64,000 nt of DNA from an uncultured bacterium (GCA_963781925.1 CAWAHQ010000002.1:25364-89363), one strand, 5' to 3'. Positions 2,738-62,190 are shown, counted from the first letter of the stretch. Notes: a model not told the origin generated them from the sequence alone. Made by a program: numbers and translations.

Positions 2738-3592
2738 TTATTCAAAAACTTTTAAACGTTTTGTTTCTTTGTCAAAATTACGATAATCTTCTCCCAATAA
2801 GTTTTGTAATGCAACGTCCTCCAGCTGCAATTTTTCCTTACTAGAAGCGCCTCCATATTCACTCGATAGAAACCGTCCAAGCTCGCCGAGCATATCTGAC
2901 CAATCAAGCTCTCTCGCAGAAGATATCATATTTATTTTTGGACCAGGACAATCTTTGGTAATATGCTGCTCAATACAACTAAAATGTGGTACCACATTAA
3001 GAATTCGGGCTGAAAAAATTGGATTATTCTTAACATCATTTTCGCCAAAAGATCGTTCAGATATATCATTAAACCCTAAATAAATATCAATGGTATCATC
3101 TTTTTTCGTATAATCGGTAAATTTTCCAATAATCCTAACAATTTTAGTGACAATAGGATCTATAATTTTACATGTTTCAGTGATACTTTTTTCCGTAGGT
3201 ATAGTCCAAAAATAACGTATAAACCCACAACGTTTTATCGGTATAAATTGCATATTTTGAGCAGTAAAGATAAATTCATCATTCCTTTCCTGCTTCTTAT
3301 CAAGCACTTCTTGAAGCTGTAATTTACTCTGAAGATCAATGGAAGAATACGAAAGTATTTTTTGAAGATCAATCGAAGATGACTCCTCAACCAGTTTCCG
3401 AGGACTCATGGTTGAATCGCTTGGAGAATATACACCTAATATACGCTTTATCACTCCATAGTTAAACTGTAGAATAGCTTTACGACCAGGCTCTTGTGAT
3501 AAAGGTATCTCTACTTCTGCTCTGTCCATTGCAAAAACATTAAAAACTGTCAAGAATGCTTGTAACACAACACATTTATTTCTGCTTTTCAT
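2738..3592 (-). CDS. Hypothetical exported protein (leader ends ...FNVFA-MD)
   Basis: 284-aa ORF in AT-rich DNA. Has a hydrophobic N-terminus and an internal SSIDLQ x2 repeat. No recognisable domain. Confidence 0.5.
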   Translation of the reverse strand: MKSRNKCVVLQAFLTVFNVFAMDRAEVEIPLSQEPGRKAILQFNYGVIKRILGVYSPSDSTMSPRKLVEESSSIDLQKILSYSSIDLQSKLQLQEVLDKKQERNDEFIFTAQNMQFIPIKRCGFIRYFWTIPTEKSITETCKIIDPIVTKIVRIIGKFTDYTKKDDTIDIYLGFNDISERSFGENDVKNNPIFSARILNVVPHFSCIEQHITKDCPGPKINMISSARELDWSDMLGELGRFLSSEYGGASSKEKLQLEDVALQNLLGEDYRNFDKETKRLKVFE

Positions 3593-4205
3593 ATGATCCC
3601 ATTACGTGCTCTACTCTTTGAAGAAACAATTTAATACGACGATAATCATTACCAATCAACAGCGAATATACTTGCATAAAATTATTAATTTTATCGGATG
3701 TAAAAATAGTATGCTCCATTTGTTGCCGCAGGAGCGCCAGGACAAGCTCATCTATATTAAAAATTTGTGAGGAATGAGTAAAGAGCAGATGCAGATATTT
3801 ATTGTTCTGAAAAAAAATTCTGCTCATTTCAGCATCGGGACGAGTAATAAATGCATGAATTTTAGGTGGCTCTGGTGCAATAAGATAAGAAATCGATCTT
3901 TTTTCTTGATAACCAATTGTTATACAAGAAAATGTTGTTTTAAGAAATTCAAATATCTGTGGCTGTTCTTTCAACAACTCCTCCTCTGTTTTTTGATACG
4001 GAAATGGATACCGCACCGGATCCATGGATCCGGTTTGAACCTGGTGAACAATCCCAAAAACAATACGTTTTTTTCCCTCCACGGCGACAAATGAACCAAA
4101 CTCAGGAAACATATCCCATGCCCAACTTTGTGCCAACCACCCCGTCAACGAACTTTCAATCACCTCGGCAAAGTATTTCTCCTTTGTGATCATGGCGCAC
4201 CTCAA
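3576..4205 (-). CDS. Hypothetical cytoplasmic protein; overlaps the downstream ORF by 17 nt
   Basis: 209-aa ORF with no leader. Start may be the M at 4193. Family not recognised. Confidence 0.5.
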   Translation of the reverse strand: MRCAMITKEKYFAEVIESSLTGWLAQSWAWDMFPEFGSFVAVEGKKRIVFGIVHQVQTGSMDPVRYPFPYQKTEEELLKEQPQIFEFLKTTFSCITIGYQEKRSISYLIAPEPPKIHAFITRPDAEMSRIFFQNNKYLHLLFTHSSQIFNIDELVLALLRQQMEHTIFTSDKINNFMQVYSLLIGNDYRRIKLFLQRVEHVMGSYEKQK

Positions 4206-4245
4206 GCATAGCTTCTATCCTTCGATACACCCTTAATCCCCAACT

Positions 4246-5010
4246 TCATTCCTCCGTTGGGGTCCCCATATGTGATGGAATAGAATATGGGGTAAGGGCA
4301 CTCAGGACGATCGGAAGAATTAATTGTTTATCCTCTTCACTATAGTCAGATTGCATCATATTTTGCAAAAAAGTTATTCGATGAAGAAAAGAATGGTGTT
4401 GTTTTTTGATAGCATGCTTATGGTGCACCGTGCCATACCCTTTATTATCCGACCACCCATAACCAGGAATGGCCTTATCATATAATGCCATCATGGCATC
4501 TCTTGTTACCTTAGCGGCAATGGATGCAGCTGCTACAGAACTTGATCTTCGTTCGCCTTTGGTAAAATAATAGACGGGAATAGTATGAAAATGTGTATCA
4601 GAAAGGTCTAATGGCATTGCATCAGTCAAAATTGCAGATGGCCGCGTGCCAGATGCTTCCAGTACGTGAATAAGCGCTTTCTTCATAGCGATCAATGTAG
4701 CTCGCCAGATATTATGCTCATCAATTGATCGATGATGAACTATACCAATACCATAGTGGCAATGCTTTTTAATCCACTGGAAAGCCTTTTCCCGTTCTTC
4801 CGGCGTCATAATTTTTGAATCTTTAAGCATCCGATGAGGCTTGCCGATGGGTAAAATAACTGCTGCTGCAACCACCGGGCCGGCAAAACAACCTCTGCCT
4901 ACTTCATCAATGCCGACCACAAGCATCTGCCGCTGCCAAGCATCGGTTTCAAATGAATTCTTCTTTATATTGCCTGTTTGTCGCGTTATGGTCATATTTT
5001 TCATTTCCAT
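4246..5010 (-). CDS. rnhB: Ribonuclease HII with a repeat-encoded C-terminal tail
   Basis: VGIDEVGRGCFAGPVVAAAV (RNase HII active-site DEDD region), DSKIMTPEERE, KGYG...H. The last ~17 codons overlap the repeat at 4259-4294. Confidence 0.85.
   Translation of the reverse strand: MEMKNMTITRQTGNIKKNSFETDAWQRQMLVVGIDEVGRGCFAGPVVAAAVILPIGKPHRMLKDSKIMTPEEREKAFQWIKKHCHYGIGIVHHRSIDEHNIWRATLIAMKKALIHVLEASGTRPSAILTDAMPLDLSDTHFHTIPVYYFTKGERRSSSVAAASIAAKVTRDAMMALYDKAIPGYGWSDNKGYGTVHHKHAIKKQHHSFLHRITFLQNMMQSDYSEEDKQLILPIVLSALTPYSIPSHMGTPTEE
4259..4294. repeat. Family-3 hairpin element (GGGGTCCCC...ATGGGGT) inside the rnhB 3-prime end
   Basis: GGGGTCCCCATATGTGATGGAATAGAATATGGGGTA. Same architecture as the copies at 25297, 33863 and 37874. 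Confidence 0.7.
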
Positions 5011-5038
5011 TTGACAAAGTTGTCAAGATGAGTACAAT
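5011..5038 (+). promoter_or_regulatory. Candidate sigma-70 promoter with an overlapping palindromic operator, upstream of the HTH-S24 repressor gene
   Basis: TTGACA (5011-5016), 16-nt spacer, TACAAT (5033-5038). Perfect inverted repeat TTGACAA-AG-TTGTCAA at 5011-5026. Confidence 0.4.
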
Positions 5039-5101
5039 TAGAAATAATACAGTAGTTACAAGATTATCATAAGTATAACCACGTTCGAAGGAGATATAAA
5101 G

Positions 5102-60870: not shown

Positions 60871-61090
60871 TTAATTGAAACCTCCAAAAATTCCCATAAT
60901 AATTTCTTTCGATAATAGCTATCATACCATGAAATAAAAAAATATTGCACAAAATAACTCAATCAAAAATTAATGATACTTGTTTTCAAAATAGAGCAAA
61001 CCCCATTCAGCCGACCCGATATTCTTGTATGTTCTTCGCGCTCGTTAGTCAGATAACCATTATCAATTCTTTCAAATGGGTACCCATCTG

Positions 61091-61215
61091 ACCTGTCCGT
61101 CGTAGCCCATGTCCCGCCGACTGTGTGCGCCATAGCCTTGGCGACGGCGTAAGCTTTCGTGTTCTTCGTAGCTCGAAGAGCGAAGTAGAAAGCGAAGGAG
61201 GATGGCGAAGAAGGA
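61091..61215. repeat. Composite GC-rich repeat (family-4 core plus the AGCTACGAAGAAC module)
   Basis: GTGCGCCATAGCCTTGGCGACGGCGTAAGC matches 21969-22003. GTTCTTCGTAGCTCGAAGAGCGAAGTAG relates to 28990-29010 and 40367-40395. Confidence 0.7.
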
Positions 61216-61237
61216 AACGTTAATGAAGGATGGTTTA

Positions 61238-61270
61238 TAAAAAAAGAGGCATGATTTTTCATGCCTCTTA
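61238..61270 (-). terminator. Terminator after ORF 61315..62190
   Basis: AAGAGGCATGA-TTTTT-CATGCCTCTT with T7 on the minus strand. Confidence 0.6.
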
Positions 61271-61314
61271 ATTTTATAAATCTTGTAAACTGAAATAATT
61301 GAGAGAATATCTTA

Positions 61315-62190
61315 TTATTTAGAAAGTGTGATGCAAGCTTGATTCGTATTAGCTAAATACACCAATACTAAAGAAAGAAAACTAATGGTTATCGTTCCTA
61401 AAGCGAAACGTACAGCATTAAGTCCTGATAGAGCTGCTTGAAGGCGTGCATATTTAATACCATGAGTATCCGACATTGCTTGAGCAACAAGATTGTCATA
61501 CAATCTTTGTAGGACTGCTTGCCTATTCTTAAGCACCTCAGGATTCAAAGTTTCCTCTATCTTCACTAATTCATCTCTATGCTGATTTATGGAGTGTTTT
61601 CTTTCAATTTCAGTGCCTATTTCTCCAATCAACCTATCAAGTTCTGGCTGTAAAACAGCGTTTGGATAAGGATGATTCTTTCCTATCTCTTTCCTGAACA
61701 TAGCTACTAACGCCTCTTCTCTTTGAGCAGGATCAGCCGTAACTAGATTTCCTAAGTCGTCTACCCCCACCGTCCTCGCGTTTTTCTCCAATTCAGCCCA
61801 TCGCAAATTCAATTTGGCTTCGTTTTTTATGTTTCGCGCTAATTGCTTATCAACAGTAAAATTGTTAGTGAGTGCATAGGATACTGCAGCAGATCCTGCA
61901 ACTGCCGCGGCTGAATAAAAGGGATGATCTTGTGGGAAAGTGAATCCTGTATAATGCGCAGCTGCTACACCAGCCCCAACAACAACCGCTGGAACCACAA
62001 GCGAAGCTAATAATCGTGCTTTTAATTTAGGGATCGTGTAAGGGCTTGATATTATTGGCAGCACAGGAATGTAGCTCTCTATTTTACAGAGAATTCCACT
62101 TTCTGCTCCCAGATCCATCCCAAACATAGAACAACTCATTGAAATTGCCACCAAAAATACGCCCATTTTTTTTGTTGAAAGTATCGTCAT
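61315..62190 (-). CDS. Hypothetical membrane protein with a bilobed hydrophobic domain
   Basis: Leader MTILSTKKMGVFLVAISMSCSMFG-MD. LVVPAVVVGAGVAAAHY - TGFTFPQDHP - FYSAAAVAGSAAVSYAL. C-terminal TM. Confidence 0.55.
   Translation of the reverse strand: MTILSTKKMGVFLVAISMSCSMFGMDLGAESGILCKIESYIPVLPIISSPYTIPKLKARLLASLVVPAVVVGAGVAAAHYTGFTFPQDHPFYSAAAVAGSAAVSYALTNNFTVDKQLARNIKNEAKLNLRWAELEKNARTVGVDDLGNLVTADPAQREEALVAMFRKEIGKNHPYPNAVLQPELDRLIGEIGTEIERKHSINQHRDELVKIEETLNPEVLKNRQAVLQRLYDNLVAQAMSDTHGIKYARLQAALSGLNAVRFALGTITISFLSLVLVYLANTNQACITLSK

What the first reader, a model, noticed from the sequence alone, without database searches (positions are those of the whole stretch)
2738..62190. Shared leader ending in A-M-E(P) or M-D on unrelated exported proteins
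At least 12 ORFs of different families have a hydrophobic N-terminal leader that ends in a small residue, followed immediately by Met and then an acidic residue:
- 13137: ...SMTA-MEPDRS
- 34114: ...VVYA-MEPARP
- 34592: ...VAYA-MEPARP
- 29054: ...QMIA-MEPEQR
- 30098: ...HIIA-MEPAQS
- 49950: ...ALHA-MEADST
- 52632: ...SITA-MEESQL
- 54817: ...QGNC-MESAVT
- 2738: ...NVFA-MDRAEV
- 58919: ...SVVA-MMEMIE
- 61315: ...SMFG-MDLGAE
- 59974: ...SLQA-MIITEN
- 51754 and 53532: ...(Y/H)S-MKR

A conserved Met exactly at the predicted cleavage position is not a normal feature of Sec signal peptides. I see three possible explanations:
(a) A lineage-specific processing or sorting tag for effectors.
(b) The internal Met is an alternative start codon, giving exported and leaderless isoforms.
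(c) The mature N-terminus Met-Glu/Asp imitates a freshly made eukaryotic cytosolic protein. Met-Glu and Met-Asp are the eukaryotic NatB substrate class. This last idea is speculative.
Basis: seen in the sequence. Interest (0 to 1): 0.8.

Follow-up and report, generated by a model that had tools for sequence, protein, structure and literature searches.

The report
Methionine right after Dependentiae signal peptides
In this genome and its relatives (Dependentiae/TM6, obligate parasites of protists), many exported proteins, especially ankyrin-repeat proteins, have a methionine followed by an acidic or polar residue exactly where the signal peptide should be cut, a conserved feature I did not find described in the literature I searched.

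Summary
The window comes from a Dependentiae (TM6/Babeliales) genome.

**In the window.** 15 ORFs have a Sec-type leader ending in [A/G/S/C] followed directly by Met. They form about 7 independent families, not 12-14.

**Counts from a cleavage-site finder that ignores the +1 residue:**
- Window: Met at +1 in 12 of 37 leader-bearing ORFs.
- Other Dependentiae loci: 34 of 233.
- Other phyla plus E. coli: 1 of 135.
- Background Met frequency is 2%.

**Conservation.** Met is kept in 23 of 29 homologues of one family and 5 of 6 of another, while the leader and the mature N-terminus diverge.

**Which proteins carry it.** Mostly soluble, acidic proteins with no known domain, and ankyrin proteins: 10 of 14 ankyrin ORFs with leaders, against 57 of 256 others. 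OmpA and MlaD envelope proteins do not carry it.

**Alternative start codon: not supported.**
- Shine-Dalgarno motifs lie before the leader start in 67% of cases.
- They lie before the internal ATG in only 12%, which equals background.

**Relic start codon: unlikely.** The residue after Met is D/E in 50% of cases, against 8% at position 2 of cytosolic proteins.

**Best reading.** Signal peptidase I cuts before Met. The new Met-Glu/Asp N-terminus then acts as a selected tag on host-directed cargo. It serves either second-step sorting or mimicry and stability of the N-terminus in the host. Sequence data cannot separate these two.

**Closest analogue.** The Bacteroidetes Q-rule.

The parts
2738..3592 (-). 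Protein with no homologues in other organisms. Leader 3530-3592, Met codon 3527-3529: ...NVFA|MDRA
   Evidence: Only hit in 5.8 billion proteins is itself. No Pfam family.
13137..13697 (-). Small ankyrin protein. Leader 13629-13697, Met codon 13626-13628: ...SMTA|MEPD
   Evidence: The heuristic also allows an upstream site, AVA|S.
29054..30079 (-). Member of a family of unknown function specific to Dependentiae. Leader 30008-30079, Met codon 30005-30007: ...QMIA|MEPE
   Evidence: 23 of 29 homologues keep small|Met.
30098..31039 (-). Tandem paralogue of 29054. Leader 30968-31039, Met codon 30965-30967: ...HIIA|MEPA
34114..34581 (-). Small ankyrin protein; the real start is MKKSYLL at 34581. Leader 34519-34581, Met codon 34516-34518: ...VVYA|MEPA
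   Evidence: Homologues have A|MEP, G|MES, G|MEP, A|MED and one G|AEPS.
34592..35041 (-). Tandem paralogue of 34114. Leader 34979-35041, Met codon 34976-34978: ...VAYA|MEPA
38714..39499 (+). Leader 38714-38782, Met codon 38783-38785: ...GMMG|MQII. This one is weak.
   Evidence: No Pfam family.
49950..51722 (+). Ankyrin protein, first gene of a tandem array of five paralogues. Leader 49950-50003, Met codon 50004-50006: ...ALHA|MEAD
51754..52563 (+). Paralogue in the array. Leader 51754-51813, Met codon 51814-51816: ...ETYS|MKRH
52632..53504 (+). Ankyrin paralogue in the array. Leader 52632-52685, Met codon 52686-52688: ...SITA|MEES
53532..54431 (+). Paralogue in the array. Leader 53532-53600, Met codon 53601-53603: ...NTHS|MKRT
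54817..55749 (+). Ankyrin paralogue in the array. Leader 54817-54873, Met codon 54874-54876: ...QGNC|MESA
58919..59917 (-). Membrane protein with two hydrophobic segments after the leader. Leader 59846-59917, Met codon 59843-59845: ...SVVA|MMEM
59974..60870 (-). Neighbour with a similar leader and two hydrophobic segments. Leader 60799-60870, Met codon 60796-60798: ...SLQA|MIIT
61315..62190 (-). Neighbour with a similar leader and hydrophobic segments. Leader 62119-62190, Met codon 62116-62118: ...SMFG|MDLG

Best explanation
**What it is.** These are genuine Sec-type signal peptides. Translation starts at the leader's own start codon. Signal peptidase I most probably cuts between the small residue (A/G/S/C at -1, L/V/I/A at -3) and the Met.

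**The rule.** Having Met at +1 followed by an acidic or polar residue is specific to the Dependentiae lineage and is kept by purifying selection. It is carried mainly by soluble, acidic proteins directed at the host: ankyrin proteins and proteins with no known domain. Resident envelope proteins do not carry it.

**How I think it works.** The free N-terminus Met-Glu/Asp that cleavage creates acts as a very short tag. It separates cargo that must leave the periplasm from proteins that stay. Export would go through the type II secretion system, reported as the only secretion system in the Babela genome (PMC4378268), or through vesicles. A periplasmic or outer-membrane receptor, or a dedicated peptidase, would read the tag.

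**Shown:**
- The motif itself and its enrichment.
- Its restriction to this lineage.
- Its conservation within families.
- Its bias towards one class of proteins.
- The position of Shine-Dalgarno motifs before the leader start.

**Inferred:**
- That cleavage happens at that bond.
- That these proteins are secreted.
- That the tag is read by some machinery.
For: **Enrichment.**
- Met at the +1-blind best site: 12 of 37 (window), 34 of 233 (other Dependentiae), 1 of 135 (outgroups).
- Sharp 19% Met peak at one position only.

**Motif**:
- -3: L/V/I/A.
- -2: Y/H/F/L.
- -1: A/G/S/C.
- +1: Met.
- +2: E/D/K/Q/N/S.

This fits the -3/-1 rule of signal peptidase I.

**Selection.**
- 23 of 29 homologues at 28-69% identity keep small|Met. 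It is the most conserved position in the first 40 residues.
- Met stays with the leader even when unrelated inserts follow it, such as ankyrin repeats or membrane segments.
- 5 of 6 homologues in a second family keep it.

**Class bias.**
- Pfam ankyrin: 10 of 58 motif-bearing ORFs against 6 of 144 other ORFs with leaders (Fisher p = 0.0035).
- OmpA (5) and MlaD (2) are found only among ORFs without the motif.
- 10 of 14 ankyrin ORFs with leaders have the motif, against 57 of 256 non-ankyrin ones.
- Mature parts of motif-bearing proteins are more acidic (p = 1e-5).
- They less often contain further membrane segments: 6 of 58 against 36 of 144.

**Real start.** Shine-Dalgarno motifs lie before the leader start in 67% of cases and before the internal ATG in 12%.

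**Lineage trait.** One related genome region (L117) has 10 ORFs with leaders and none with Met; cleavage there exposes acidic residues directly.

**Literature.**
- Most ankyrin proteins of Babela and Chromulinavorax carry signal peptides.
- In Babela a type II system is the only secretion system found.

(PMC4378268, PMC6561590.)
Against: - No experimental N-termini exist, so the cleavage site is a prediction from my own heuristic.
- The tag is not universal among effector-like proteins with leaders. A PP2C phosphatase, an endonuclease/phosphatase-family protein, two LRR proteins and some ankyrin proteins lack it.
- Two residues carry little information for a sorting signal.
- No candidate receptor or second signal peptidase was found in the sequence I could reach.
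- Type II secretion substrates in other bacteria have no linear signal.
- The data fit the host-side reading (first rival) equally well.
Confidence: 0.35

Rival explanations
1. The N-terminus matters in the host, not in the bacterium. The leader is cut as above, but selection acts in the host cytosol. Effectors exported through Sec expose an arbitrary new N-terminus. An acidic early mature region, which helps Sec export, would then expose D/E/N/Q, and these are destabilising in the eukaryotic Arg/N-degron pathway. A Met placed in front gives an N-terminus like that of a newly made host protein. Met-Asp/Glu/Asn/Gln is the NatB substrate class; it is not trimmed by methionine aminopeptidase and is stabilising.
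For: - 71% of motif-bearing ORFs (41 of 58) have D/E/N/Q after Met.
- The motif is concentrated in ankyrin proteins and proteins without known domains, which probably act in the host.
- Sites without Met in the same genomes also favour D/E at +2 (25%), so Met looks like a cap placed in front of an acidic start.
- It would explain why the rule appears in a phylum whose described genomes show only Sec plus type II secretion (PMC4378268).
- The N-degron and NatB rules come from established knowledge. They were not tested here.
Against: - A, S, T and G are also stabilising and are the usual +1 residues, so Met is not strictly needed.
- NatB works on nascent chains at the ribosome, so acetylation of a delivered protein is doubtful.
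- 12% of motif-bearing ORFs have Met-Lys, and some window cases have Met followed by a hydrophobic residue, which is itself a degron in yeast.
- Membrane proteins with the motif (58919-62190) may not expose their N-terminus to the cytosol.
- The region without the rule (L117) has leader-bearing proteins that would start with D, E or Q, though it is unknown whether these are effectors.
Confidence: 0.3
2. The rule is about processing only. The signal peptidase I of Dependentiae, or one paralogue of it, simply cuts better or at a better rate with Met at P1'. The Met has no role after cleavage. This would parallel the Bacteroidetes Q-rule, which is not a sorting signal.
For: - The motif sits exactly at a site that fits the -3/-1 rule.
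- There is a precedent for a phylum-wide +1 preference (PMC5837995).
- The rule is present or absent by lineage.
Against: - Only 13-38% of ORFs with leaders follow it.
- Classical envelope proteins do not: OmpA 0 of 5, MlaD 0 of 2.
- The Q-rule, in contrast, holds in all compartments.
- No signal peptidase gene was available to examine.
Confidence: 0.12
3. The Met is a start codon, either a relic or still in use. These genes once began at this ATG, for example after transfer from a eukaryote. They gained a leader when the reading frame extended upstream. Alternatively, the ATG is still used to make a form without the leader.
For: - Met has only one codon, and it is the start codon.
- Gene callers do pick it as the start in some homologues (P0012, P0019).
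- AT-rich upstream DNA easily encodes sequences rich in Lys and hydrophobic residues.
Against: - No Shine-Dalgarno motif lies before the internal ATG: 12%, equal to background. 67% of leader starts have one.
- The residue after Met is D/E in 50% of cases, against 8% at position 2 of cytosolic proteins with ATG and a Shine-Dalgarno motif. Those prefer I, K and N.
- Met is kept at 28-69% identity while every neighbouring position changes. A neutral relic would not behave this way.
- GTG and TTG never occupy the position.
- No DNA cassette is shared between the leaders of different families.
Confidence: 0.07

Closest known systems
Bacteroidetes Q-rule (Gln at +1 of signal peptidase I substrates, converted to pyroglutamate; PMC5837995, PMC10653852)
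   Same: Both are phylum-specific, strong preferences for one residue directly after the signal peptidase I site. Both were found by tabulating +1 residues. Neither is seen in neighbouring phyla.
   Different: - Here the residue is Met, not Gln.
- The Dependentiae rule covers 13-38% of proteins with leaders and favours ankyrin proteins and proteins without known domains. The Q-rule covers more than 60% and holds in all compartments.
- No modifying enzyme like glutaminyl cyclase is known for Met.
- The Q-rule was shown not to be a sorting signal and to raise stability.
Lipoprotein sorting residues after the cleavage site (the +2 Asp 'Lol avoidance' rule in E. coli; the acidic lipoprotein export signal in Bacteroidetes). 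From my own knowledge, not tested here.
   Same: In both, one to four residues right after the signal-peptide cut, often acidic, decide where the mature protein ends up in the cell envelope.
   Different: Those signals need a lipid-modified Cys at +1 and signal peptidase II. Here +1 is Met and the -2 position does not fit a lipobox.
Plasmodium export element PEXEL (RxLxE/Q/D). From my own knowledge, not tested here.
   Same: In both, a leader is removed and the new N-terminus has E/Q/D at its second position. In Plasmodium that N-terminus is what marks the protein for export into the host cell.
   Different: PEXEL belongs to a eukaryotic parasite and is cut by plasmepsin V in the ER. It needs Arg and Leu upstream and lies further from the signal peptide. 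Nothing here suggests homology.
Signal peptides on ankyrin-repeat proteins of Dependentiae (Babela massiliensis, PMC4378268; Chromulinavorax destructans, PMC6561590)
   Same: This is the same phenomenon at a coarser level. Most ankyrin proteins of these bacteria carry Sec leaders and are thought to be secreted.
   Different: My term searches of both papers for signal-peptide, N-terminal and secretion wording found no mention of the residue after the cleavage site. My five literature searches found no report of a Met at +1.

Membership tests
Sec signal peptide cleaved by signal peptidase I | Positively charged N-terminal region followed by a hydrophobic core of about 8-15 residues | tested here: met
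   All 15 window leaders and the 58 motif-bearing ORFs pass a charge and hydrophobicity filter. Median leader length is 21 residues.
Sec signal peptide cleaved by signal peptidase I | Small residue at -1, small or aliphatic residue at -3, no Pro from -3 to +1 | tested here: met
   Among the 58 motif-bearing ORFs: -1 is A (23), G (14), S (11), C (8), T (2); -3 is L (22), V (8), I (8), A (8). Position -1 was part of the selection filter; position -3 was not.
Sec signal peptide cleaved by signal peptidase I | Translation starts at the leader's start codon | tested here: met
   A Shine-Dalgarno-like motif lies upstream of 67% of leader starts.
Sec signal peptide cleaved by signal peptidase I | The leader is actually removed at the predicted bond | not testable with these tools
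   This needs N-terminal proteomics or Edman sequencing.
Lipoprotein signal peptide (signal peptidase II) | Lipobox with an invariant Cys at +1 | tested here: not met
   +1 is Met. Ordinary lipoboxes exist in the same window, for example LAAC at 10777 and LPGC at 45831.
Type IV prepilin-like (class III) signal | Gly at -1, Phe or Met at +1, Glu at +5, with the hydrophobic stretch after the cut | tested here: not met
   The hydrophobic stretch comes before the Met. -1 is Gly in only 14 of 58. +5 is not conserved (E in 9 of 58).
Tat signal peptide | Twin-arginine motif in the N-terminal region | tested here: not met
   None of the window leaders contains RR.
Bacteroidetes Q-rule | Gln at +1 in most signal peptidase I substrates of all compartments | tested here: not met
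   +1 is Met, in 13-38% of ORFs with leaders, with a bias towards one class of proteins. It is an analogue, not a member.
Internal alternative translation start | Ribosome-binding signal upstream of the internal ATG | tested here: not met
   12% have a motif of 4 or more bases. This equals the 12% seen for 1329 in-frame internal ATGs.
NatB-type N-terminus (Met followed by Asp, Glu, Asn or Gln) | The sequence of the first two residues of the mature protein | tested here: met
   41 of 58 motif-bearing ORFs: E 17, D 12, Q 6, N 6. Hydrophobic residues at +2 were excluded by the filter that defined this set.
NatB-type N-terminus (Met followed by Asp, Glu, Asn or Gln) | N-terminal acetylation in the host | not testable with these tools
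   This needs mass spectrometry of secreted proteins.

The most novel reading that the evidence does not exclude
The Met-acidic N-terminus left after leader removal is a true host-targeting or export tag in a bacterium. It would be read by a dedicated receptor or peptidase in a phylum whose described genomes show only Sec plus a type II system. It might also pass as a native NatB-class N-terminus once inside the host. That would be a bacterial counterpart of the Plasmodium export element. It would also allow Dependentiae effectors to be predicted from sequence.
Probability: 0.3. Interest if true: 0.85.

Novelty: new variant of a known kind. Interest (0 to 1): 0.72.

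Why it matters
**The open question.** Dependentiae are a widespread phylum of obligate parasites of protists. 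Genetic tools were not mentioned in anything I read, and only four isolates were reported as of 2022 (PMC8812299). How they get hundreds of ankyrin and other proteins into the host is not known. The genome papers describe only Sec and a type II system (PMC4378268; PMC4776705).

**What this finding offers:**
- A two-residue mark at the cleavage site that is conserved, specific to the lineage and biased towards ankyrin proteins gives a concrete, testable handle on sorting or on protein stability in the host.
- It gives a simple way to predict effectors from sequence.
- Some related lineages appear to lack the rule. Comparing gene content with and without it could reveal the machinery that reads the mark.

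**A practical point.** Gene callers sometimes start these genes at the internal Met and so miss the signal peptide. This biases predictions of which proteins are secreted.

Tried and rejected
- **Exact look-ups.** Look-ups of the window's ValRS and GatB proteins found nothing. The organism was identified through homologues instead.
- **Two wasted homology searches.** Searches on 2738 and 52632 returned only the query itself. These proteins have no homologues in other organisms.
- **Shared leader cassette spread by recombination: rejected.** Leaders of different families share only 13-14 bases, from codons such as ATGAAAAAAATT.
- **Kozak-like context for translation by the host: rejected.** GCN-ATG-G fits the consensus, but Ser at -1 is mostly coded TCN, which does not (listing).
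- **Prepilin, lipobox and Tat signals: rejected** on their defining residues.
- **Search for a signal peptidase I gene** by conserved-box patterns in the window and the ValRS loci L001-L029: none found.
- **Function of the 29054 family.**
  - No Pfam family.
  - No PDB sequence match.
  - The AlphaFold model is confident (pLDDT 85).
  - Foldseek gave no significant hit. The top rows, not significant, were eukaryotic protein kinases.
- **Rfam and tRNA scans** found only tRNA-Gly.
- **Literature.** Five searches found no description of this rule.

Full report
**Source of the window.** GC content is about 38%. The window carries ordinary bacterial housekeeping genes by N-terminal sequence (ValRS, GatB, FtsZ/FtsA), mixed with many small ORFs that have N-terminal leaders. 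Homologues of one such ORF are named 'Candidatus Babeliales bacterium'. The closest ValRS loci among species-representative genomes are TM6/Dependentiae assemblies at up to 82% identity. The window therefore comes from a member of the Dependentiae (TM6, Babeliales). Published genome analyses describe these as obligate intracellular parasites of protists. They report many ankyrin proteins with signal peptides and, in Babela, a type II system as the only secretion system (PMC4378268; PMC6561590; PMC4776705).

**Checking the observation.** Each has one or more Lys/Arg near the start, a hydrophobic core, a small residue (A, G, S or C) and then Met. Three corrections are needed:
The motif lies at the other end.
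- The 15 ORFs form about 7 independent groups, not 12-14 unrelated families. Two are tandem pairs, one is a tandem array of five paralogues (49950-55749), and one is a trio with similar leaders (58919-62190).
- The residue after Met is D/E in 10 of 15. The rest are K, M, I or Q.

**Is it more than chance?** No SignalP was available, so I wrote a simple signal-peptide and cleavage-site finder. It scores charge, hydrophobicity and the -3/-1 rule, and it ignores the +1 residue.
- *Controls on the method.* It recovers known E. coli sites for SurA, LptD, ThiB, DegP and BtuF. It also shows the Bacteroidetes preference for Gln among unrelated ankyrin proteins.
- *Window.* It places Met at +1 in 12 of 37 ORFs with leaders, against a Met background of 2.1% (binomial p = 8e-12).
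- *A test without site prediction.* I asked which residue precedes the first charged residue after the hydrophobic core. It is Met in 42% of window ORFs, a 20-fold excess.
- *Position profile.* Plotted by position, Met frequency in all Dependentiae data shows one sharp peak of 19% at that position and 1-7% elsewhere. Outgroups are flat at about 2%.

**Is it a trait of the lineage?** Two independent samples of related genomes were fetched with housekeeping proteins as bait.

| Sample | small\|Met-polar |
|---|---|
| 22 Dependentiae loci around ValRS (species-representative genomes) | 44 of 165 ORFs with leaders |
| 18 Dependentiae-like metagenome loci around GatB | 9 of 68 |
| Other phyla fetched by the same scans, including 18 AT-rich loci | 3 of 111 |
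| E. coli K-12 | 1 of 24 |

Dependentiae without the window differ from all outgroups with Fisher p = 6e-8. The motif in the 58 best cases is L/V/I/A at -3, Y/H/F/L at -2, A/G/S/C at -1, Met at +1 and E/D/K/Q/N/S at +2. An acid-rich stretch runs to about +5. The rule is not present everywhere. One related genome region (L117) has ten ORFs with leaders and no Met; its sites are A|DD, A|DH, S|AD, C|ET and A|QD.

**Is the Met under selection?**
- *The 29054 family.* It has 29 members from different assemblies at 28-69% identity. 23 have small|Met at the end of the leader. It is the most conserved position in the first 40 residues.
- *Met travels with the leader.* It stays there even when long unrelated inserts (ankyrin repeats, membrane segments) separate the leader from the conserved domain.
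- *Two apparently leaderless members.* P0012 and P0019 are gene-calling errors. An in-frame leader with a Shine-Dalgarno motif lies directly upstream.
- *The 34114 ankyrin family.* Five of six full-length homologues have A/G|ME, and one has G|AEPS.
- *Recombination.* Leaders of different families share no DNA beyond a few codons, so a shared cassette spread by recombination is excluded.

**Which proteins carry it?**
- *Pfam, 58 motif-bearing ORFs.* Almost only ankyrin repeats (10 ORFs), one WD40-like propeller, one GNAT and one PGA_cap. Most have no Pfam family.
- *Pfam, 144 other ORFs with leaders.* Ankyrin in 6, plus OmpA (5), MlaD (2), transporters and many other families. The ankyrin difference gives Fisher p = 0.0035.
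- *Ankyrin consensus search.* 10 of 14 ankyrin ORFs with leaders carry the motif, against 57 of 256 non-ankyrin ones.
- *Physical properties.* Mature parts of motif-bearing proteins are more acidic (p = 1e-5) and rarely contain further membrane segments (6 of 58 against 36 of 144).
- *Exceptions.* A PP2C phosphatase, an endonuclease/phosphatase-family protein, LRR proteins and some ankyrin proteins have leaders without Met.

- *(b) Alternative start codon: not supported.*
  - Shine-Dalgarno-like motifs of at least 4 bases precede 67% of leader starts.
  - They precede only 12% of the internal ATGs, the same as 1329 in-frame internal ATGs of other genes.
  - When V or L occupies +1 before a polar residue, the codon is never GTG or TTG (small numbers).
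- *A related idea, a relic start codon left after the frame extended upstream: also unlikely.*
  - The conservation described above argues against it.
  - The residue after Met is D/E in 50% of cases, while cytosolic proteins with ATG and a Shine-Dalgarno motif have D/E at position 2 in only 8% and prefer I, K and N.
- *(a) Sorting or processing tag, and (c) mimicry of a host N-terminus: both still fit.*
  - 71% of motif-bearing ORFs have D/E/N/Q after Met, which is the NatB substrate class.
  - Hydrophobic residues at +2 were excluded when the set was defined, and an acidic +2 is also favoured at sites without Met (25%).

**Mechanism.** I commit, with modest confidence, to this model. Signal peptidase I cuts before Met. 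The new Met-Glu/Asp N-terminus is a short mark on cargo that must leave the periplasm, and some component of the second export step reads it.
- *For the sorting reading.* The rule skips resident envelope proteins. Met specifically is required, although other small residues would be equally stable in the host. Known precedents for sorting information right after a leader cut include the lipoprotein +2 rule, the Bacteroidetes lipoprotein export signal and PEXEL; these come from my own knowledge.
- *For the nearly equal rival.* The Met may cap an acidic early mature region so that the protein shows a stabilising, native-looking N-terminus in the host cytosol. This would explain why the rule appears in a phylum that seems to rely on Sec for its secreted proteins.
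- *A third possibility.* A pure processing preference of the signal peptidase is less likely because of the class bias.

None of these can be settled from sequence.

**Comparison with what is known.**
- *Closest described phenomenon.* The Bacteroidetes Q-rule is a phylum-wide Gln at +1 of signal peptidase I substrates, converted to pyroglutamate. It holds in all compartments and is not a sorting signal (PMC5837995; PMC10653852).
- *How the Dependentiae rule differs.* It differs in the residue, in coverage (13-38% against more than 60%) and in its bias towards one class of proteins.
- *Other signal types.* The motif fails the defining features of lipoprotein, prepilin and Tat signals.
- *Literature.* Five full-text searches, plus term searches inside three Dependentiae genome papers and the Q-rule paper, found no mention of a Met at +1.
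- *Rating.* I rate it a new variant of a known kind: a lineage-specific rule for the residue after the signal-peptide cut.

**Limits.**
- The signal-peptide finder is a heuristic.
- Paralogues inflate the counts.
- Only about 0.8 Mb of Dependentiae sequence was sampled, all near three bait genes.
- No complete genome could be analysed.
- Cleavage and secretion are inferred, not shown.

Noticed in passing
window 58919-59917, 59974-60870, 61315-62190 (minus strand): Three tandem genes have similar leaders. Each has two closely spaced hydrophobic segments right after the leader, a layout that recalls the 'bilobed' inclusion-membrane (Inc) proteins of Chlamydia. Their mature parts show no BLAST similarity to each other.
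   Followed up: partly
window 29054-30079 and 30098-31039; homologues P0001-P0029: This family is specific to Dependentiae and has an invariant C-terminal motif, APFDIGYDNIF...GDAIIIDTE. It has no Pfam family and no PDB sequence match. The AlphaFold model is confident (pLDDT 85), but Foldseek finds no significant fold match. The top rows, not significant, are eukaryotic protein kinases.
   Followed up: partly
window 10777-11334 (+); L012:7882-8448: A protein with a GNAT acetyltransferase motif (RGRGYG) carries a lipoprotein-type leader (LAAC|GG). Other GNATs with leaders occur in related loci: 1 among motif-bearing ORFs and 3 among the others. An exported acetyltransferase is odd because the periplasm has no acetyl-CoA, so it may act in the host.
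   Followed up: no
window 11836-12834 (+) and 807-1691 (+): A PP2C-type protein phosphatase and an endonuclease/exonuclease/phosphatase-family protein both have leaders but no Met at +1. The rule is therefore not universal among effector-like proteins.
   Followed up: partly
P0001, P0012 (L034:242-310), P0019 (L033:908-981): Automatic gene callers started these genes inside the leader or at the internal Met. An in-frame leader with a Shine-Dalgarno motif lies upstream. Predictions of secreted proteins in these genomes will therefore miss some signal peptides.
   Followed up: yes
L117 (ENA ERZ25039503 contig_26261, 1.25 Mb contig, GC 0.42): This locus comes from the genome that holds a distant homologue of the 29054 family. 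It has 10 ORFs with leaders and none with Met at +1. The predicted cuts expose D, E, A or Q directly. It could serve as a contrast lineage for finding the machinery linked to the rule.
   Followed up: partly
window 7514-8020, 8176-8709, 8862-9107, 9123-9641 (+); 25391-26047 and 26091-26735 (-): Two further families of tandem paralogues have near-identical leaders (MTISKKLLIV...; MKKMLLMT...) but ordinary cleavage sites without Met. Their function is unknown.
   Followed up: no
P0036-P0181 (unrelated ankyrin proteins from the representative search): Among ankyrin proteins with leaders from other organisms, many have Gln at +1 (LYA|QQ, LQA|QS, TQA|QG, LSA|QY). This is the known Bacteroidetes Q-rule and served as an unplanned positive control of the method. 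One protein, P0125, has LIG|MEEP.
   Followed up: partly
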